From the IMG/VR virus record IMGVR_UViG_2585427971_000012: 44,826 nt of DNA, one strand, 5' to 3'. This document shows, piece by piece, positions 677 to 31,055 of this stretch. Numbering within the stretch: position 1 is the first letter of the stretch; every line of letters begins with the position of its first letter. The stretch is from a virus. Its lineage: Duplodnaviria; Heunggongvirae; Uroviricota; Caudoviricetes. The notes below the pieces were generated by a model. It ran no database searches, was not told the origin of the DNA, and saw only the letters and a program-made list of their open reading frames with translations. A program made the position numbers and the translations under genes.

Positions 677-2694
677 ACTGCCTCCTTGATTTGCCTGTCA
701 TTTAATTCTTTAAACCAGACTCTGAAATTTCTGATGTGTCCAAACAAATGACGCGTTCCTGCTGCGGTCTGCCCACCAAACCGGTACGATGTTGCTGTAA
801 CTCCAAATATTTTACCATTAAGGTTTGTTGTATAATTACCATTGCATATTGCATTTACTGATAAATCAGATTTAGCTCTCACACCCACAATGAACCTTTC
901 TCCATCTGAGGCAATTTGTGGCTGAACCATTCCTACGTTGGCGCTTATCTTTCCTGTTGCAACAAACCCCAGCGATAAATAATTATCATCAATACTGTGC
1001 CCTCCAACATCAAATATCCTTGGCGCAACATTGGGCGGTGTACTCCAGTTCCTGCTTACTTCGCACAATACCGTAAAAGGCCGTGTTGACAGGTTATTCT
1101 GCGATGGGATAGTAACTACATCACTTGCGCGTGTTGTTGGCATTGTAGTTACAATAAATGACGATGCCGTATTGCCCAGTTCAATTTGCGGCGTCGTCAT
1201 GGTTAATGTTGAGTCATCATAGAATGTCTCATTACTTATTTTATTTGTCATATAAAAAGCACAGTTAACGGTATCAATGTCCGTATTAGCTGTATAAGTG
1301 GCCTCATAGTAGGTCCACTCGCCCTGTTGTTCAGCTTTGGCTGTTATAAGGGATGTATTACCGCTTACTGTTGCGATCCGGGTATCCAGATCAAGATAAG
1401 AGTCAGCAGAGAAGGTATCTGTTCCACCAATAATAACTGAAACTCTTAACCTGCATCGTGCTTTAGCGCCTTTAACCCGGCACGAAAAAGTGAAACATTC
1501 ACCACTTGCCAGCGGGAATCTGTCTGCTGCAACCACACCATGCACAGTATAGCCACCTGTTGTTCCCACTATACTTTCCGTGGGTGTCACCGTGGCATAA
1601 TTGAACCCCTGTTTATCAGTGCCAAATGTTTTATTCAGTGCGGAATGAACAGTCCATGAGTCTGGTTTATTTGAGTTCCTCAGATAATTTGTCCTCTGTC
1701 CTTCAATCAATAAGCCATCGCGCTCAAATCGCGGTTCGTCAACTTCAGCAAGCTTGAGTTGGCCGGACTTATTAATATACGTTGCTGTTGAAGCACGTTT
1801 AAACTTAACAATCTTGTCGCCTGGCATTGTTATTTCATCGTCACCAATAACTATCTTTTTATAAGATGGCGAAAAACCCGTAATCATATCCAGTGAATCG
1901 TTAAACGGTATCCACACATCAGGCAGCGGCGGCACTATATTCGCACAGGGCTCTGCAGTCACTTCCGCTGCGGCTTCTGCGCGGTCTGCCGCCTTTTCAG
2001 CTCGTGTCGCTGCCGACAGAGCCTCATCCTTTTTCTGCCCGGCCTTTGTTGCGTCTGCTGCGGCCTCCCGCGCTTTTGTGGTGGCGACTCCGGCATTTTC
2101 AGCGGCTGACTCTGCATTACGGCGGGAAGCCTCTTCACTGTCTGCGGAGGCTTCTTCTGACGCACGGGCATTTGTCTCTGAACGTTCTGCCGCTGTTGCT
2201 GCGTTTTGTGCGGCTGTTTTTGAAGAAGCTGCCGCTTTCGCGCTGTTACCTGCATTCGTCTCTGATGTTTTCGCCGCGTTCCTGGACGATGCCGCTGCTG
2301 TTTCTGATTTCTTTGCTGCCGCTGCGCTCTGAGAGGCGGCTTCAGCGTTGCGTGCCGCCTCTTCCACCATCTTTTCAAAACGATACAGTGCCTCCGGACA
2401 AACATCATCTTCTGTTGCAGCGCCCAGAAAATCATTCAATGTCCCCGGCTTAGAATCCTCATACACGGTGATGGTCCCGGCATGTGAAGGCGGAAAACCT
2501 TCAACCAGCAGGGCGACGCTGTACTGGCCATACTCAACATCCATGCTGTAACGTCCGGCTTCATCCGGATTTTCTGAGGCCACCGTGTTCACCACAACTG
2601 TGGTGCTGTTACGTTTTGCTTTGAGCTGAATGGTGCAGTTCTGTATCGGTTTTCCTGCACCGTCTTTCAGCACACCTGAAATCTGTACTGCCAT
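673..2694 (-). CDS. stf: Side tail fibre protein, Stf-like: lambda-type N-terminus, Ala/Ser-rich repeat region, divergent C-terminal domain
   Basis: N-terminus from the ATG at 2694 (MAVQISGVLKDGAGKPIQNCTIQLKA...) matches lambda Stf as recalled. Track start 2700 is an upstream GTG; GGAG sits 5 nt before the 2694 ATG. C-terminal ~350 aa is unlike lambda. Confidence 0.8.
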   Translation of the reverse strand: MAVQISGVLKDGAGKPIQNCTIQLKAKRNSTTVVVNTVASENPDEAGRYSMDVEYGQYSVALLVEGFPPSHAGTITVYEDSKPGTLNDFLGAATEDDVCPEALYRFEKMVEEAARNAEAASQSAAAAKKSETAAASSRNAAKTSETNAGNSAKAAASSKTAAQNAATAAERSETNARASEEASADSEEASRRNAESAAENAGVATTKAREAAADATKAGQKKDEALSAATRAEKAADRAEAAAEVTAEPCANIVPPLPDVWIPFNDSLDMITGFSPSYKKIVIGDDEITMPGDKIVKFKRASTATYINKSGQLKLAEVDEPRFERDGLLIEGQRTNYLRNSNKPDSWTVHSALNKTFGTDKQGFNYATVTPTESIVGTTGGYTVHGVVAADRFPLASGECFTFSCRVKGAKARCRLRVSVIIGGTDTFSADSYLDLDTRIATVSGNTSLITAKAEQQGEWTYYEATYTANTDIDTVNCAFYMTNKISNETFYDDSTLTMTTPQIELGNTASSFIVTTMPTTRASDVVTIPSQNNLSTRPFTVLCEVSRNWSTPPNVAPRIFDVGGHSIDDNYLSLGFVATGKISANVGMVQPQIASDGERFIVGVRAKSDLSVNAICNGNYTTNLNGKIFGVTATSYRFGGQTAAGTRHLFGHIRNFRVWFKELNDRQIKEAV

Positions 2695-2705
2695 ATTCAC
2701 TCCAC

Positions 2706-2733
2706 AAATAAAAAAGGCACCATTTCTGGTGCC
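2706..2733 (-). terminator. Candidate intrinsic terminator between J and stf
   Basis: Inverted repeat GGCACC(2716..2721)/GGTGCC(2728..2733) with 6-nt loop, followed on the minus strand by a U-run (plus-strand aaataaaaaa 2706..2715). Confidence 0.4.
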
Positions 2734-2752
2734 CGAATTTGGGTTTTAAAAT

Positions 2753-5700
2753 TCAACTGATACTGATGCCGGCTGTTGATTTCTTCATCACGACAACAAG
2801 AAGGTCGCTGATACTGGTCGTTGGCGTCCAGTTATTTGCACCATATGAAGAAACATTGAAAGTCAGGGTGACATGGCCGTGTCCGGCAGGCATATCAATG
2901 ACTGATGAAAATACCCTGCTGACATCCGTCGCGGGTTGCTGAAAGATTTCCTGTCCGTTCTTCAGCACCTGCAGCTTACAGGTTGAATACCAGTATGACT
3001 GTTGGTTGTTGCTGTTGAAGTTTTCATGCTTACCACCGCGAAACAGAACGGGGGGGACGACTATCTGACGGTCAAAAGCCTGGTCATCGTACACAGTGAC
3101 CGTTATTGTACCGCTGGCATAACTGCCATTTCTCGGAAAGGCTTTTCCCACCGTTTTGACAATATCACCTTCAATCTGGTTAGCTGACAGTTTTCCCAGA
3201 ATCCGACAGTTCTGGTTAATCGTGACATTATTGAGCGTCCCGGAGTTCGCATTCACGTTACCGCTGATATCCGCATTTCTCGCAGAAAGTCGACCATCAG
3301 GTGTCAGTGAAAACGTTGGGGGATTGCCACCGCTGGTAATGGTGGGAGCCGTCAGATATTTCAGGAACACTTCGTTCATGAATATCTGATCGCCCTGCCC
3401 AACAAACATCGGCTTTGTATTGCCATTCGCAGGATTAATCATCGCAATCCTGTCCGCCGCCAGCAGCACCTGACTCTGCATACCGTCAGGGGTATTCTCA
3501 ATACCGGCACCAATACCCGCGATATAAAGGCGTCCGTCCTGCATCTGCTGCAGCTTCACAGCCCACATGCTGTTCAGGTTATTATTTGTATCAACCTGAA
3601 CCTTCTGTATCTGCTGGATCGCTGCACTCTGGTCTTCCAGTTTCTTATTGACGGTCTGCGTGATTTCATTGCTGACATCCGTAATGGACGTCCTGATTTC
3701 AGCCAGGTCAGGCGCAAGCTGACCGTTATCAATCTGCGTCCACAACTCCTGAGCCAGATGGGTTTTCCCTATCTCTCCTTTGAAAAAATCCAGATAGCCG
3801 GATGCATCATCACTCGGCTGGCCAACAGCCTCCACAAATGCCGATTTGCCAACGGTGTTCACACTGCGAATGTAAAAATAATAATCATGGCCCGGTTTGA
3901 TATTGATACTGGCGGCTATCCAGTACAGCGCCGTACCAAGATAACGCGCGCTGGCTTCAACCTGCCTGATATCCGCAATCCGCTTTTCCGAGAACCAGAA
4001 CTCAAACTGTACCGTCGGATCATAAACGGCAAGATGCGGCGTTGCGGTTATCTGAAAATAGCCCGGCGTCAGCTCAATCCGCGATGGCGCTGCCGGTGCG
4101 GCAATCCGGAACGATACCGACGCCGGATCCCCCTGCTGCCCCCACGCATTTACCGCCCGGACTGTCAGCCTGTAGTTCCCCAGCGCCAGTTGCCTGAAGC
4201 GGTATGTGGTTTCCGTCGTCCTGGCCGTGCTGACCAGCCGCTCACTGCCGTCATCCGCTGCCACGGTCAGGCGAAGCATAAAGCTCACCCCCTTCACCAC
4301 CTTCGGTGTGTCCCATCGCGCCAGCACCTGATATTCCCCGCTGTCTGCGGTGACTTCTGCGGTCAGGTGCTGCACCGCGGGCGGCGTGACACCATTCACC
4401 GTGCCACTCTGTTCGCCGTCAAAGTGCGCCCCGTTATCCACGATGGTCTCTTTTTCCGGCATATGCTGCACGGCGGTGATGGCATACGTGCCGTCGTCGT
4501 TTTCACGGATACTCACGCAGCGGAACAGTCGCTGGCGCAGCGTCGGCAGCTTCAGCCCCCATACGCTGTATTCAGCAACACCGTCAGGAACACGGCTCAC
4601 TTTCACCTTCACGCCGTCGGTGACGGACTGAACCTCCACGCTGACCGGATTGCCACTTCCGTCAACCAGGCTTATCAGCGTGGTACCGGAGGATGGCAGC
4701 GTGATTTCACGGTCGAGCGTCAGCGTCCGGGTCTGGCTGTTCACCGCCAGCACACGACCACCGGTGCTGATACCGGCATAGTCATCATCGCAGATTTCAA
4801 TGACATCCCCCGGTACATGGCGAAGCCCTTCAGCACCCACGCTGAAGTCCACGGTCTGCGTTTCCAGCAGCTCCGTTTTAATCAGCCACAGCCCGGCGCG
4901 GTGTGCCTGCCCCCGGCTGGTACAGCCAAAGGCATCCATCTTCGTGACGTTACGGCCGTAACGGGCAATGGCCTGCGTATCCTCCACGAGCTCTGTCGCC
5001 GTCTCCCAGCCGTTATCCGGGTCAATCCAGTTCACCTCAACGGCATTATGGCGGTCCTTCAGGGCGCTGAAGCTGTAGCGGAACGGCGCGCCATCATCCG
5101 GCATCACCACATTACTGCGGTTATAGGTCCACACCTTATCTGATGGTCGGTCCTGCACGAACGTCAGCGTCTGCCCGTTCCATACCGGCATACAGCGCAT
5201 CGCCGAGCAGAAATCACTGAGCACATCCCACGCCTTGCGCTGTGTGGTCAGGTACGCATTACAGGTAATGCGCGGCTCCGTGCCGCCAAAGCCGTCCGGC
5301 ACCGACTGGTCGCAGTACTGGCCGATGACATACAGCGCCCATTTATCCACATCCGCCGCACCAAGACGTTTCCCCATGCCGTAGCGCGGATGGGTCAGCA
5401 TATCCCACAGACACCAGGCCATGTTGTTGCTGTATGCCGGTTTTAACGTTCCGTCCCAGATACCGCTGTATTGCCGCGTCTGCGGGTTATAGTTCGACGG
5501 CACCTGCAGAATGCGCCCGCGAAGATGATAATTACGGCTCACCTGCTGGCTGCCGAACTGCTCCGAGTCCACCTGCACGCCAACCAGTGCCGTGTTCGGG
5601 TAGCACTGTTTCACATCGATGATTTCGGTGTATGACGACCAGAGCGTTTTGTTCAGCAGCTGGTCTGTGGTGCTGTCCGGCGTCATCCTGCGCATCCGGA

Positions 5701-23603: not shown

Positions 23604-24065
23604 CTATCTGCACTGCTCATTAATATACTTCTGGGTTCCTTCCAGTTGTTTTTGCATAGTGATCAGCCTCTCTCTGAGGGTGAAATAATCCCGTTCAGCG
23701 GTGTCTGCCAGTCGGGGGGAGGCTGCATTATCCACGCCGGAGGCGGTGGTGGCTTCACGCACTGACTGACAGACTGCTTTGATGTGCAACCGACGACGAC
23801 CAGCGGCAACATCATCACGCAGAGCATCATTTTCAGCTTTCGCATCAGCTAACTCCTTCGTGTATTTTGCATCGAGCGCAGCAACATCACGCTGACGCAT
23901 CTGTATGTCAGTAATTGCCGCGTTCGCCAGCGTCAGTTCTCTGGCATTTTTGTCGCGCTGGGCTTTGTAGGTAATCGCGTTATCGCGGTAATGATTAACC
24001 GCCCATGAAAGGCAGACGATGACGCAGATAACCAGAGCGGAGATAATCGCGGTTATTCTGCTCAT
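23604..24065 (-). CDS. Rz: Spanin inner-membrane subunit Rz (153 aa)
   Basis: [53 protein letters not shown]... matches lambda Rz. Confidence 0.95.
23663..23845 (-). CDS. Rz1: Spanin outer-membrane lipoprotein Rz1 (60 aa), embedded in Rz in the +1 frame
   Basis: [60 protein letters not shown]; lipobox and proline-rich tail as in lambda Rz1. Confidence 0.9.
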
Positions 24066-24538
24066 ACCTCACTCTCTCTGAGCGTTCCGCCAGCTTCTTT
24101 GAATTTTGCAATCAGGCTGTCAGCCTTATGCTCGAACTGACCATAACCAGCGCCCGGCAGTGAAGCCCAGATATTGCTGCAACGGTCGATTGCCTGACGG
24201 ATATCACCGCGATCAATCATCGGTAAAGCACCACGCTCTTTAATCTGCTGTAATGCCACTGCGTCCTGGCTTTTGGGGGAGAAGTCTTTCAAACCAAGCT
24301 GTTTACGGTAAGCATCCCACCAGCGTGAAAGAAGCTGATAACGTCCGGCGGCTGTTGATTTGAGTTTGGGGTGTAGCGTGACAAGTTTGCGAGGGTGATC
24401 GGAGTAATCAGTAAACAGTTCGCCGCCAACAATAACATCATAACCGTGGTTACGTGTCGGTTGTCGCCCGTTATCCGTTCCTTCTGACCACGCCAACATA
24501 TCGAGGAAGGCTTTACGCTGAGGATTAAGATTTTGCAT
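24062..24538 (-). CDS. R: Endolysin R (lambda-type lytic transglycosylase, 158 aa)
   Basis: ...[48 protein letters not shown]... matches lambda R as recalled. Confidence 0.95.
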
Positions 24539-24842
24539 TTTTCACCCCTGTCAGTCGTTCCCAGAAGTACGTCAGTGCAACCGAACCCATCGCACCACTA
24601 ATCCCCGCTGTCGCGAGAATCATGTAAATACTGAATCCACTTTCGATGCTGATCAGGCCACCAATAACACCGGTGAATCCTGATACCACTATTTGAGCCA
24701 GAGCATTTATCCAACTCCACGTTGCTTTACTCTGCTTCACATCTATCAGGTAGCGGACCAGACCGCCCCAACCTGCGATGATCAGCAAAACGAGCCAGAA
24801 CGCTCCGGCAAGGCTCTCTTTTTCGTGCATATGAATAGCCAA
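24525..24842 (-). CDS. Holin (105 aa, multi-TM), not lambda S-type
   Basis: Immediately upstream of and overlapping R; hydrophobic helices; N-terminus MAIHMHEK has two Met codons 4 residues apart, compatible with a holin/antiholin dual start. Sequence unlike lambda S as recalled. Confidence 0.7.
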   Translation of the reverse strand: MAIHMHEKESLAGAFWLVLLIIAGWGGLVRYLIDVKQSKATWSWINALAQIVVSGFTGVIGGLISIESGFSIYMILATAGISGAMGSVALTYFWERLTGVKNAKS

Positions 24843-25044
24843 TGTTTCGCCGCCGACAAAAGGCCGGGACGTTAAATGTCAGAAATCAGGCTCACGGGGT
24901 AATTTAACGACAAAGCACGGAGTTGATGCTCCCCGCAAGCCTGGAATAAAAAAGCCAGCATGTAGCTGGCAACAGAGGGTTAAGCAATATCAACTCAACA
25001 GCTGAAGACACCCTGGCTGGGGTAGGTTGGAAGGCTACTCACCG

Positions 25045-25084
25045 TTCAGAAACAGAAAAGCCCAAGGCTTTAAACCTCGGGCTT
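25045..25084 (-). terminator. Candidate tR'-like terminator between Q and the lysis genes
   Basis: Minus strand: AAGCCCGAGGUUUAAAGCCUUGGGCUU hairpin (25058..25084) followed by UUUUCUGUUUCUG (plus 25047..25059). Confidence 0.45.
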
Positions 25085-25151
25085 GAATTTGGATTACTGC
25101 CAGTGCGTACAACATTGGCAAAATATCAGATTTACATAAAATATATGATTT

Positions 25152-25841
25152 TTAATCCAGTTTTGCAATATCTTGCTGTGAAAATATGGTCTTTTGTTTT
25201 GAACGTGTTTTCGTTAAAAGCAATAAAGCTTGGCTATCAAGCTGTAGAAAAATGTGCTTCATTGCAACCCAGCGTTCAGTAAATGTCTCAGACCAGTTTT
25301 TTGATGTCACTCCCACCAGTGATGCCAGCTCCTGGTATTCATAGGTCTTACGCCCTGCCAGCTCGTTCTTCACATCCTGTGCCGCCAGCCAGATCAACTT
25401 CTTCAAACGTTCCAGTGTTTTACCTGCAATTTTCCTGGTACCCAACAGAGTCTTAAACTCGCTCCATGCCCACTGCGTTATGGTGACCTGATGTTCCCAG
25501 CGAACACTTTCGCTGTAACTCCACAGCAACCACGCTTTCTGATGTTCTTCGAGAGACAGAACCGCGCGGCGCCATGACGAGGTTGAGAACTCAACCTGGC
25601 TGACCAGTGCAATGGATGAACCTTTTGCGTACAACTGCTTACCGGAAATCGGCGGATTATCCAGCGTAATCATCCTGCCAGTTACCTCATCCAGAATGCG
25701 CGGCTTCTTTCGTTTGTATGTACCAGTATCAAATTGTGCATGCTCCAGCCAGGCTTCAAGCTGTCCTTTCGTTGCTCCGCTCAAATCAGCGGTAGCCACA
25801 ATGAGTTGCTCGCGGACATACTGTAAATATTGGGTATTCAT
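25152..25841 (-). CDS. Late-gene regulator in the Q position (229 aa); family not assigned
   Basis: Sits between the nin region and the holin, about 300 bp upstream of the lysis cassette. Contains no cysteine, so no lambda-Q-type zinc finger; HTH-like segment YQELASLVGVTSKNWSE. Assignment is by position only. Confidence 0.5.
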   Translation of the reverse strand: MNTQYLQYVREQLIVATADLSGATKGQLEAWLEHAQFDTGTYKRKKPRILDEVTGRMITLDNPPISGKQLYAKGSSIALVSQVEFSTSSWRRAVLSLEEHQKAWLLWSYSESVRWEHQVTITQWAWSEFKTLLGTRKIAGKTLERLKKLIWLAAQDVKNELAGRKTYEYQELASLVGVTSKNWSETFTERWVAMKHIFLQLDSQALLLLTKTRSKQKTIFSQQDIAKLD

Positions 25842-25960
25842 GCGGCAGCTCCTTTCAGTGTTTTGGCGTAATTCTTCAGTATCCGGTAATCGGTCAAAAC
25901 AGAACTAGGAAAACGATATAAGCGCAGGCGCACCCAGCGGCGGCGAAGACGTTCTGCCAT
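25838..25960 (-). CDS. ylcG: YlcG-like small protein (40 aa)
   Basis: ATG at 25960; MAERLRRRWVRLRLYRFPSSVLTDYRILKNYAKTLKGAAA; stop overlaps the start of the Q-position gene (ATGA); between rusA and Q as in DLP12. Confidence 0.4.
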   Translation of the reverse strand: MAERLRRRWVRLRLYRFPSSVLTDYRILKNYAKTLKGAAA

Positions 25961-25974
25961 ATAAGACTCAAACA

Positions 25975-26337
25975 TCATTCATCTCCCAGTTCAGTGATAG
26001 TCAGCTCCAGCTTCCCACCTTTGGTAACGGGCATCTTCACAACGCGGTAATCAACGACCTGAGCATCATCCAGCCAGAAACCTGCTTTGGTGAGTGCGTC
26101 AAAAGCGGCCTTTTGCAGATTATCAAGGTCACGGCGACGGCGATCCGGCATGTGGCACTCAATGCTGATTTTCACAGGAATAGCCAGGCCGATATCCAGC
26201 ATTGCGTTTTTAATGATTCGGGCGACATTATCGCGGTATGCCTGCCCCTCTGCGCTGATATGCGTGCGTCCGCGATTATGGCGGTAATAGCGATTATTGC
26301 TCGGCGGCCAGGGTAGTGTGATGCAGTAAGTATTCAC
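25975..26337 (-). CDS. rusA: RusA Holliday junction resolvase (120 aa)
   Basis: [103 protein letters not shown]... matches RusA as recalled. Confidence 0.95.
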
Positions 26338-28638: not shown

Positions 28639-29064
28639 ATGGAATTACAGGACTGGCGAAAAGAACCTCGTAAAAACTATTCGAATGAATTCAAACTTCG
28701 TATGGTGGAACTGGCATCACAACCTGGAGCTTGTGTTGCACAGATTGCACGTGAAAATGGCGTCAATGATAATGTTATTTTCAAATGGCTCAGGCTCTGG
28801 CAGAACGAAGGGCGTGTTTCGCGGCGTCTTCCGGTAACGACCTCTTCTGACACTGGCGTTGAATTATTACCTGTAGAAATAACGCCGGATGAGCAGAAAG
28901 AACCTGTGGCGGCCATTGCGCCGTCTTTATCCACTTCCACTCAGACCAGAGTCAGTGCCAGTTCCTGCAAGGTGGAATTCCGTCACGGTAACATGACGCT
29001 GGAAAATCCATCGCCAGAGCTGCTCACAGTGTTGATCCGTGAACTGACCGGGAGGGGAAGATGA
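28639..29064 (+). CDS. tnpA: IS66-family accessory protein TnpA (141 aa)
   Basis: ORF track; first of three co-oriented IS ORFs; N-terminal HTH-like segment. Confidence 0.8.
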   Translation: MELQDWRKEPRKNYSNEFKLRMVELASQPGACVAQIARENGVNDNVIFKWLRLWQNEGRVSRRLPVTTSSDTGVELLPVEITPDEQKEPVAAIAPSLSTSTQTRVSASSCKVEFRHGNMTLENPSPELLTVLIRELTGRGR

Positions 29065-29411
29065 TCTCACTCCCATCAGGTACCCGTATCTGGCTCGTTG
29101 CCGGCGTTACCGATATGCGTAAATCCTTCAACGGACTGGGAGAACAGGTACAACATGTGCTGAATGATAATCCCTTCTCCGGTCACCTGTTTATCTTCCG
29201 TGGCCGACGGGGTGACACCGTCAAAATTCTTTGGGCTGATGCTGATGGTCTGTGCCTGTTCACCAAACGCCTGGAGGAAGGCCAGTTTATCTGGCCTGCG
29301 GTACGTGACGGCAAGGTATCCATTACCCGCTCGCAACTGGCAATGCTCCTCGATAAGCTGGACTGGCGTCAGCCAAAAACATCCAGCCGTAACTCACTGA
29401 CAATGTTGTAA
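29061..29411 (+). CDS. tnpB: IS66-family accessory protein TnpB (116 aa)
   Basis: ORF track; overlaps the tnpA stop by 4 nt; MISLPSGTRIWLVAGVTDMRKSFNGLGEQV... is the characteristic IS66 orfB N-terminus as recalled. Confidence 0.8.
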   Translation: MISLPSGTRIWLVAGVTDMRKSFNGLGEQVQHVLNDNPFSGHLFIFRGRRGDTVKILWADADGLCLFTKRLEEGQFIWPAVRDGKVSITRSQLAMLLDKLDWRQPKTSSRNSLTML

Positions 29412-29441
29412 AAAACTCCTGACCGCATTATAAAAACGGTC

Positions 29442-31055
29442 ATGAGTCAGAAATACCTCATTCGCATCGCAGAGCTGGAAAGGTTGCTCTCTGAGCAGGC
29501 TGAAGCCCTCCGTCAGAAAGACCAGCAACTGAGTCTGGTTGAAGAGACGGAAGCCTTCCTGCGCTCTGCACTGACACGTGCCGAAGAAAAGATCGAAGAA
29601 GATGAACGGGAAATAGAACATCTGCGGGCTCAGATAGAAAAACTGCGCCGGATGCTGTTCGGTACCCGTTCTGAAAAACTGCGTCGTGAAGTTGAACTGG
29701 CTGAGGCTCTGCTGAAACAACGTGAACAGGACAGCGATCGTTACAGTGGGCGGGAAGACGATCCTCAGGTTCCCCGCCAGTTGCGACAGTCGCGCCATCG
29801 TCGTCCGTTACCGGCACACCTTCCCCGTGAAATACACCGCCTGGAGCCAGAAGAAAGCTGTTGCCCGGAGTGTGGCGGTGAGCTGGATTATCTGGGGGAA
29901 GTCAGCGCTGAACAGCTGGAACTGGTGAGCAGTGCCCTGAAAGTGATCCGCACAGAACGGGTAAAAAAAGCCTGTACAAAATGTGACTGTATTGTTGAAG
30001 CACCGGCGCCGTCCCGCCCGATAGAGCGTGGTATCGCGGGCCCCGGATTACTTGCCCGCGTGTTAACGGGAAAATACTGCGAACATCTGCCACTGTATCG
30101 TCAGAGTGAAATCTTTGCCCGCCAGGGTGTCGAACTGAGCCGGGCCTTACTCTCCAACTGGGTTGACGCGTGCTGCCAGTTAATGACACCGGTGAATGAT
30201 GCCCTGTACCGTTATGTAATGAACACCCGCAAGGTTCACACTGATGACACACCGGTAAAGGTACTGGCACCGGGTCAGAAAAAGGCGAAAACAGGGCGTA
30301 TCTGGACGTATGTCCGGGATGATCGCAATGTGGGTTCGTCATCTCCTCCAGCGGTCTGGTTCGCGTACTCGCCGAACCGGCAGGGGAAACACCCGGAGCA
30401 ACACCTCCGCCCCTTCCGGGGTATCCTGCAGGCGGATGCGTTCACAGGTTACGACAGGTTGTTCAGTGCAGAACGTGAAGGTGGTGCACTGACAGAAGTT
30501 GCGTGCTGGGCCCATGCCCGGCGAAAAATCCACGATGTATACATCAGCAGCAAAAGTGCGACGGCAGAAGAAGCCCTGAAGCGAATCAGTGAACTGTACG
30601 CCATCGAGGATGAAATACGGGGATTACCGGAGTCAGAGCGTCTTGCCGTCAGGCAGCAGCGAAGCAAAGTGTTACTGACGTCGCTGCATGAATGGATGGT
30701 GGAGAAGAATGGTACGCTGTCGAAAAAATCCAGACTGGGCGAAGCGTTCAGCTATGTACTGAATCAGTGGGATGCCCTCTGTTATTACAGTGATGACGGT
30801 CTGGCGGAGGCGGATAATAATGCTGCGGAAAGAGCGCTTCGTGCAGTCTGTCTCGGAAAGAAAAACTTTATGTTCTTTGGCAGCGATCACGGCGGCGAGC
30901 GTGGAGCACTGTTGTACGGGCTGATCGGCACCTGCCGTCTGAACGGTATCGATCCGGAAGCGTATCTGCGCCATATCCTGAGCGTACTGCCGGAATGGCC
31001 TTCCAACCGAGTTGACGAACTCCTGCCATGGAACGTAGTACTCACCAATAAATAA
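29442..31055 (+). CDS. tnpC: IS66-family transposase TnpC (537 aa)
   Basis: ORF track; leucine-zipper-like N-terminus, CxxC...CxxC zinc-finger-like segment (CCPECGGE...CTKCDC), large DDE-type core. Confidence 0.85.
   Translation: MSQKYLIRIAELERLLSEQAEALRQKDQQLSLVEETEAFLRSALTRAEEKIEEDEREIEHLRAQIEKLRRMLFGTRSEKLRREVELAEALLKQREQDSDRYSGREDDPQVPRQLRQSRHRRPLPAHLPREIHRLEPEESCCPECGGELDYLGEVSAEQLELVSSALKVIRTERVKKACTKCDCIVEAPAPSRPIERGIAGPGLLARVLTGKYCEHLPLYRQSEIFARQGVELSRALLSNWVDACCQLMTPVNDALYRYVMNTRKVHTDDTPVKVLAPGQKKAKTGRIWTYVRDDRNVGSSSPPAVWFAYSPNRQGKHPEQHLRPFRGILQADAFTGYDRLFSAEREGGALTEVACWAHARRKIHDVYISSKSATAEEALKRISELYAIEDEIRGLPESERLAVRQQRSKVLLTSLHEWMVEKNGTLSKKSRLGEAFSYVLNQWDALCYYSDDGLAEADNNAAERALRAVCLGKKNFMFFGSDHGGERGALLYGLIGTCRLNGIDPEAYLRHILSVLPEWPSNRVDELLPWNVVLTNK

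What the first reader, a model, noticed from the sequence alone, without database searches (positions are those of the whole stretch)
25152..25841. Q-position regulator with no cysteines
The gene occupies the exact Q slot, downstream of rusA-ylcG and about 300 bp upstream of the holin with an intervening terminator-like hairpin. The 229-aa product has no Cys (so no lambda-Q zinc finger) and does not look like the short DLP12 QuuD as I recall it; it has an HTH-like segment near residue 150. It may be a distinct antiterminator family or a late-gene activator.
Basis: partly seen in the sequence, partly recalled or inferred. Interest (0 to 1): 0.4.

Follow-up and report, generated by a model that had tools for sequence, protein, structure and literature searches.

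The report
Phage 82-type Q late-gene antiterminator
This gene is a near-identical copy (97% of amino acids) of the well-studied Q protein of phage 82, which lets RNA polymerase read through a terminator to switch on a prophage's lysis and structural genes, so it is ordinary and already known.

Summary
The ORF is real. It lies at 25152..25841 on the minus strand, encodes 229 aa with no cysteine, and sits between ylcG/rusA and the holin. It is not a new family. It matches Pfam PF06323 over its full length (E 2.6e-93); the literature calls PF06323 the Q82 family, the third known Q family beside Q-lambda and Q21. It is 223/229 identical to the prototype phage 82 Q (GenBank X92588), and the whole ninB-ninE-ybcO-rus-orf45-Q block is collinear with phage 82. 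The same DNA is annotated 'bacteriophage antitermination protein Q' in hundreds of E. coli genomes.

The downstream DNA carries the expected control elements:
- a promoter whose -35 overlaps the end of Q;
- a TGnTATTTT sigma-70 pause element, with GCC at +15-17 and T at +25, as published for 82 pR';
- a 12-bp terminator hairpin, followed by the holin.

The parts
25152..25841 (-). Q gene: 229-aa Q82-family transcription antiterminator
   Evidence: ORF; PF06323 E 2.6e-93 over residues 4-219; PHROG 304 E 2.6e-107; 223/229 identical to phage 82 Q, X92588
25849..25854 (-). Ribosome-binding site AAGGAG, 7 nt before the ATG; the ATG overlaps the ylcG stop codon (ATGA), suggesting translational coupling
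   Evidence: Read directly from the sequence
25838..25978 (-). ylcG (phage 82 orf45), the upstream neighbour that overlaps the Q start
25163..25168 (-). Late promoter pR' -35 hexamer TTGCAA, inside the last codons of Q
   Evidence: Promoter scan; TTGCAAAA conserved in 6 of 7 Q82-family phages, with phiES15 reading TTGAAAAA, and upstream of Gifsy-1 isrJ
25146..25162 (-). 17-bp promoter spacer AACTGGATTAAAAATCA, the presumed Q-binding element (QBE); contains the Q stop codon
   Evidence: Inferred: the QBE of Q proteins lies between -35 and -10 (PMC4914094); the spacer is well conserved among relatives. Not tested.
25140..25145 (-). pR' -10 hexamer TATATT
   Evidence: conserved
25133..25133 (-). 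Inferred transcription start (+1, A)
   Evidence: It lies 7 nt after the -10. This choice puts GCC at +15-17 and T at +25, exactly as published for 82 pR' (PMC5001585). The Rfam isrJ match begins 3 nt upstream, at 25136.
25120..25128 (-). Sigma-70-dependent pause element: extended -10-like TGaTATTTT (+6 to +14)
   Evidence: Sequence; fits the description of the 82 pR' pause element with an extended -10; the T-TG-TAT core is invariant in 7 family members
25117..25119 (-). GCC discriminator-like element at +15 to +17
   Evidence: Sequence against PMC5001585
25108..25109 (-). Predicted pause / Q-loading site (+25 T, +26 A)
   Evidence: Inferred from PMC5001585: pause at +25/+26 with a U at +25
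25049..25084 (-). Intrinsic terminator tR': 12-bp stem AAGCCCGAGGTT/AGCCTTGGGCTT plus TTCTGTTTC. It ends an ~80-nt leader RNA when Q is absent.
   Evidence: Terminator scan; in the MFE and centroid folds of the leader; hairpin plus T-run at the same place in relatives
24945..24970 (-). Second terminator-like hairpin GCCAGC-TACAT-GCTGGC plus TTTTTTATT, between tR' and the holin
   Evidence: function not tested
24525..24830 (-). Holin, the first late gene under Q control (followed by endolysin 24062..24538 and Rz 23604..24065)

Best explanation
The gene encodes the late-gene antiterminator Q of a phage 82-like lambdoid prophage of E. coli. The mechanism below is inferred from work on phage 82 Q.

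1. Host sigma-70 RNA polymerase starts at pR', whose -35 lies in the last codons of Q.
2. About 25 nt downstream the polymerase pauses, because sigma-70 re-binds the -10-like TGaTATTTT element in the early transcribed region.
3. Q binds its DNA site in the promoter spacer through its C-terminal helix-turn-helix. With help from NusA, it transfers onto the paused polymerase.
4. Q then travels with the polymerase and makes it resistant to the terminator at 25084..25049 and to later terminators and pauses. The holin, endolysin, Rz and the head and tail genes are then transcribed.
5. Without Q, the promoter yields only an ~80-nt terminated leader RNA.

Shown here: family membership, near-identity to the prototype, gene position, and the promoter, pause element and terminator in the sequence.
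Inferred: the start site, the QBE location, and the activity itself.
For: - PF06323 matches over the full length at E 2.6e-93, and PHROG 304 'anti-termination protein Q-like' at E 2.6e-107.
- PF06323 is the Q82 family according to PMC9388147.
- The protein is 223/229 identical to phage 82 Q. The Q gene DNA is 98.4% identical to X92588. The 2.1-kb ninB-ninE-ybcO-rus-orf45-Q block is collinear with X92588.
- 398 E. coli records carry >=99% identical DNA, and the listed 100% matches are annotated 'bacteriophage antitermination protein Q'. The exact protein is on >=1000 contigs.
- The region is 99.9% identical in the isolated phage PhiR47_2.
- The promoter, extended -10-like pause element, GCC at +15-17 and T at +25 fit the published 82 pR' description position for position.
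- The terminator hairpin is present.
- The same -35, spacer, -10 and TGnTAT elements are conserved downstream of Q in 6 other family phages whose Q is 48-87% identical.
- 82Q antitermination, its QBE dependence and NusA stimulation are experimentally established (PMC4914094).
Against: There is no direct functional test of this allele. It differs from the prototype at six residues (L70S, Q204E, K211R, T218A, I219T, D224N), none in the predicted HTH. The phage 82 record ends at the Q stop codon, so identity of pR' with the real 82 pR' rests on a verbal description in a paper, not on an aligned sequence. NCBIfam returned no family. The mechanism of the Q82 family after loading is unsolved, and PMC9388147 doubts a closed nozzle.
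Confidence: 0.95

Rival explanations
1. It is a classical transcription activator of the late promoter (recruiting polymerase), not an antiterminator.
For: It has an HTH, and its presumed binding site overlaps the promoter.
Against: The pR' -35 and -10 are already good sigma-70 hexamers (9 of 12). A sigma-dependent pause element and a strong terminator follow directly. The 97%-identical phage 82 protein acts by terminator read-through in vitro (PMC4914094).
Confidence: 0.02
2. It is a decayed, non-functional remnant in a cryptic prophage.
For: The window's prophage carries an IS66 insertion at 28639..31055, so some decay has occurred.
Against: The ORF is intact with its RBS and full-length profile match. 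The Q-to-holin region is 99.9% identical to that of an isolated phage, PhiR47_2. Identical copies sit in prophages with complete int-to-J gene sets.
Confidence: 0.03
3. Besides its phage role, it acts as a host-wide antiterminator that is toxic when expressed, like Gifsy-1 AntQ.
For: Gifsy-1 AntQ is 67-69% identical to this protein. AntQ causes growth arrest in Salmonella and E. coli that Rho or RNase H rescues (PMC4825925).
Against: This was shown only with overexpression of another family member. It adds to the main explanation rather than replacing it. Nothing in this window bears on it.
Confidence: 0.3

Closest known systems
Phage 82 Q (82Q, REGQ_BP82; GenBank X92588, CAA63332)
   Same: 229 aa with 223 identical residues; the same upstream genes (orf151/ninB, orf56/ninE, orf96/ybcO, rus, orf45/ylcG); pause-element features as published for 82 pR'.
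   Different: Six substitutions, five of them in the last 26 residues. The host prophage also carries moron genes (inverse autotransporter, hydrolase) and an IS66 element.
Phage 434 Q and Gifsy-1 AntQ (other Q82-family members)
   Same: Same family, length and position. They are 87% and 67-69% identical. The pR' core is conserved.
   Different: In Gifsy-1 an isrK-orf45-anrP module separates antQ from the late promoter and isrJ. Phage 434 has different genes after the terminator.
Lambda Q (PF03589)
   Different: There is no detectable sequence relationship (Pfam; hhalign probability 1.6%). This protein has no zinc ribbon and no Cys. Lambda pauses at +16/17, phage 82 at +25/26.
Q21 / QuuD (PF06530) and Pseudomonas AlpA
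   Different: No sequence match. Q21-type proteins are shorter and, unlike lambda Q and 82Q, do not need NusA as a cofactor.
N15 gp40 and VP882 Q (distant PF06323 members of linear plasmid-prophages)
   Same: Same family at 24-28% identity, with the same invariant residues (R10, R92, W104, Y109, W126, Q155, V178, W183, W191).
   Different: Different genome context: N15 gp40 lies next to cro and the repressor.

Membership tests
Q82 family (Pfam PF06323) | Full-length match to the family profile above the curated cut-off | tested here: met
   312 bits against a cut-off of 25; residues 4-219 cover profile positions 1-216 of 220. PHROG 304 gives 359 bits.
Q82 family (Pfam PF06323) | Homology to the type protein, phage 82 Q | tested here: met
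   223/229 identical with no gaps
Q82 family (Pfam PF06323) | Gene lies at the end of the nin region, directly upstream of the late promoter and lysis genes | tested here: met
Q82 family (Pfam PF06323) | 82-type pR': extended -10-like pause element, GCC at +15-17, pause at +25 (U) | tested here: met
   With +1 at 25133 all published positions fit, and the element is conserved in relatives. The start site itself is inferred.
Q82 family (Pfam PF06323) | Intrinsic terminator between pR' and the late genes | tested here: met
   12-bp hairpin plus T-rich tail at 25084..25049
Q82 family (Pfam PF06323) | QBE-dependent, NusA-stimulated terminator read-through | not testable with these tools
   Known for 82Q from PMC4914094; needs in vitro transcription or a reporter assay for this allele
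Q-lambda family (Pfam PF03589) | Match to the family profile | tested here: not met
   No PF03589 hit at E<=1. Profile-profile comparison against 9 lambda-Q-family proteins gives probability 1.6% over 23 columns.
Q-lambda family (Pfam PF03589) | Zinc ribbon 'arm' with conserved Cys pairs | tested here: not met
   This protein has zero Cys, whereas the lambda family has invariant C118, C121, C144 and C147.
Q-lambda family (Pfam PF03589) | Four-helix body with a canonical HTH | tested here: inconclusive
Q21 family (Pfam PF06530; includes DLP12 QuuD) | Match to the family profile | tested here: not met
   No PF06530 hit at E<=1

The most novel reading that the evidence does not exclude
The ~80-nt RNA that pR' makes when Q is absent (about 25133..25052, minus strand) may be the E. 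coli counterpart of the Salmonella 'island sRNA' IsrJ. If so, IsrJ-type RNAs are terminated leaders of Q82-type late promoters, made constitutively in lysogens. They might act in trans on host genes, as shown for StxS from Shiga-toxin phage pR'. The homology and the leader status are well supported here; the trans-acting role is speculation.
Probability: 0.2. Interest if true: 0.35.

Novelty: already known. Interest (0 to 1): 0.06.

Why it matters
It matters little as a discovery. It is a textbook regulator, already named in RefSeq, and practically the type protein of its family. It is useful for annotation: it fixes the late promoter, pause site and terminator of this prophage. The only open question it touches is general to the family. 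No Q82-family structure has been solved, and whether these proteins form the 'nozzle' seen for Q21 and lambda Q is unsettled (PMC9388147).

Tried and rejected
- A first AlphaFold run with 30 close homologues (74-95% identical) gave pLDDT 46 and was discarded. A second run with 69 diverse sequences was usable.
- Sequence searches of the PDB, with the single protein and with a 69-sequence profile, found nothing at E<=10.
- Foldseek against the PDB and against viral predicted structures gave no significant hit outside the family.
- hhalign of the Q82 profile against lambda Q alone, and against a 9-member lambda-Q alignment, was not significant (probability 0.2% and 1.6%). Both runs aligned the same stretch, Q82 177-199 with lambda Q 170-192.
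- I considered reporting the fold resemblance between Q82 and lambda Q/AlpA as new. I rejected that because PMC9371919 already states it from AlphaFold models.
- A literature search for the literal 82 pR' sequence returned only unrelated papers among those listed, and no supplement text was held.
- NCBIfam gave no family.
- A CII-box-like TTGCN6TTGC lies antisense at 25163..25176. It is the only copy in the window, but 3.3 are expected by chance, so it is not evidence by itself.

Full report
**Observation.** Window 25152..25841 holds a 229-aa ORF on the minus strand with an ATG start and a TAA stop. An AAGGAG ribosome-binding site lies 7 nt before the ATG, and the ATG overlaps the stop codon of the upstream ylcG gene. 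The product has no cysteine and four histidines. Lack of Cys in a protein this long is not unusual: about 7% would lack it by chance (my assumed 1.15% Cys frequency). The close homologue in phage 434 has one Cys, so the meaningful point is that the family has no conserved Cys cluster. On the minus strand the gene order is ninB, ninE, ybcO, rusA, ylcG, this gene, a 321-bp gap, holin (ATG at 24830), endolysin and Rz/Rz1; bor/iss follows on the other strand.

**Identity.** Pfam gives one hit, PF06323 (Phage_antiter_Q), at E 2.6e-93. It covers residues 4-219 against profile positions 1-216 of 220. Neither PF03589 (lambda Q) nor PF06530 (Q21/QuuD) appears, even at E<=1. PHROG 304 'anti-termination protein Q-like' matches at E 2.6e-107. 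Yin et al. 2022 (PMC9388147) list three Q families, Q21 = PF06530, Q-lambda = PF03589 and Q82 = PF06323, with no obvious sequence similarity among them.

A blastn search of phage records found GenBank X92588, 'Bacteriophage 82 orf33, orf151, orf56, orf96, rus, orf45, and Q genes', at 98.4% identity over the whole gene. The proteins are 223/229 identical without gaps. The 2.1-kb block from ninB to Q is collinear with phage 82. The gene is therefore an allele of the family's type protein.

The same 1.3 kb is 100% identical in the listed complete E. coli genomes, where it is annotated 'bacteriophage antitermination protein Q'; 398 records match at >=99% and 2,391 match in all. The exact protein occurs on at least 1000 contigs. 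The region is 99.9% identical in the isolated phage PhiR47_2. In strain 4/1-1 it lies in a complete lambdoid prophage next to icd.

**Control elements.** Read on the minus strand, the end of Q and the gap contain the following.
- A promoter, TTGCAA (25168..25163), a 17-bp spacer and TATATT (25145..25140).
- An early transcribed region, AAATCTGATATTTTGCCAATGTTGTA.
- If transcription starts at A 25133, then TG falls at +6/+7, TATTTT at +9..+14, GCC at +15..+17 and T at +25.

PMC5001585 describes the phage 82 late promoter in these terms: a -10-like pause element with an extended -10, a GCC 'discriminator' at +15-17, an AT-rich stretch, and a pause at +25/+26 with U at +25. The fit is positional on every point, but the start site is my inference, because the phage 82 record stops at the Q stop codon.

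The promoter core and the TGnTAT element are conserved downstream of Q in phage 434, two E. coli phages, and Klebsiella, Enterobacter and Cronobacter phages. Their Q proteins are 48-87% identical to this one, and each has a hairpin plus T-run within about 60 nt. A second terminator-like hairpin lies at 24970..24945.

**Mechanism.** By inference from phage 82 Q, sigma-70 polymerase starts at pR' and pauses at about +25 when sigma re-binds the -10-like element. Q bound to its site in the promoter spacer then engages the paused complex with NusA's help. The modified polymerase reads through tR' into the lysis and morphogenesis genes (PMC4914094; PMC12360218). Without Q, an ~80-nt leader RNA is made.

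**Structure.** No solved structure matches by sequence, either with the single protein or with a 69-sequence profile, and I found no paper reporting one. An AlphaFold run with only close homologues failed (pLDDT 46). After a second database search seeded with distant members, a 69-sequence alignment gave mean pLDDT 79, with about 90 or more over residues 85-220.

The model has N-terminal helices (3-17, 21-34), then a poorly defined segment up to about residue 80 containing two short strands. A helical domain follows (82-95, 99-109, 115-133, 140-161), ending in a helix-turn-helix (169-176, then 180 onward). The invariant V178, W183 and W191 sit in that motif. The HTH is therefore real but lies at about 169-195, not near 150.

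This resemblance is not new. Wen et al. [quoted passage not shown] Yin et al. 2022 caution that 82Q may not form a closed nozzle.

**Comparison and membership.** Every sequence-testable defining feature of the Q82 family is met; only the biochemical activity could not be tested. Membership of the lambda-Q and Q21 families fails on sequence, and for lambda Q also on the zinc ribbon. The protein works like them but is not one of them.

**Side findings.**
- Rfam's isrJ model matches the predicted leader RNA over its full length, below threshold (25136..25057, 30.4 bits against a cut-off of 37, E 7e-4).
- In Gifsy-1 the true isrJ (100 bits) sits after the isrK-orf45-anrP insert. It is preceded by the same ATTGCAAAACTGGATTAAAA...TATATTTTATGTAAATCTGATA sequence as this window's pR', including remnants of the last Q codons.
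- IsrJ therefore looks like the terminated leader of a Q82-type late promoter, comparable to lambda 6S RNA and StxS (PMC7547250). The papers I read do not say this.
- The window also carries an IS66 element that truncates a hydrolase moron gene.

**Verdict.** This is a correct sighting of a real gene with a sensible functional guess, but the 'distinct family' is the long-known Q82 family and the protein is nearly its prototype. It is already known and of low interest.

Noticed in passing
window 25057..25136 (-): Rfam isrJ (RF01393, a Salmonella 'island' sRNA) matches the predicted pR' leader RNA over the full model, below threshold (30.4 bits against 37; E 7e-4 in a 351-nt search). The shared 5' part, UGUAAAUCUGAUAU, contains the sigma-dependent pause element.
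   Followed up: yes
L025 (Gifsy-1, NC_010392) 1907..2030 (-): The true isrJ (100 bits) lies downstream of antQ-isrK-orf45-anrP and upstream of tRNA-Arg and the lysis genes. It is preceded by the same -35, spacer and -10 as this window's pR', including remnants of the last Q codons. IsrJ therefore looks like the terminated leader of Gifsy-1's Q82-type late promoter, displaced from antQ by the inserted isrK/C4-antirepressor module. I did not find this stated in the papers read.
   Followed up: partly
window 24945..24970 (-): A second, canonical-looking terminator (GCCAGC-TACAT-GCTGGC plus T6) lies about 80 nt after tR' and before the holin, so the late leader may carry tandem terminators.
   Followed up: no
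window 25163..25176 (+) and 25115..25142 (+): Antisense to the end of Q there is a TTGCN6TTGC repeat, the CII-box consensus that the phage 434 record annotates as paQ at the same place. A good promoter-like site (TTGGCA-16-TAAAAT, 10 of 12) points into Q. The repeat is the only copy in the window but is not more than chance expects (3.3 expected).
   Followed up: partly
window 28639..31055 (+): An IS66-family element (three ORFs of 141, 116 and 537 aa; the last has the IS66 DDE transposase domains) is inserted after position ~28568. It cuts the 3' end of an alpha/beta-hydrolase (BD-FAE) moron gene that is intact (347 aa) in strain 4/1-1.
   Followed up: partly
window 31310..35575 (-): A 1421-aa ORF lies on the same strand as the phage early-right genes. 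It is the same length as the 'inverse autotransporter beta domain-containing protein' annotated between replication gene P and ninB in the matching prophage of strain 4/1-1, so it looks like a large moron. I did not scan the window copy itself.
   Followed up: no
proteins P0122, P0127: The 90%-identity cluster that contains this Q is represented by 313-aa versions from Cedecea and Enterobacter, about 84 residues longer. This could be an extension, a fusion or a mis-called start.
   Followed up: no
L001 (phage 434, OL657226) 860..3190: Phage 434 keeps a 30-codon N-terminal fragment of a lambda-type Q, followed by an lpxR-like moron, ylcG and then a complete Q82-type Q (87% identical to this one). 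This is a visible scar of Q-module replacement.
   Followed up: no
window 25152..25841 (-): NCBIfam release 20 returns no family for this protein even at E<=1, although RefSeq/PGAP names identical copies 'bacteriophage antitermination protein Q'.
   Followed up: no
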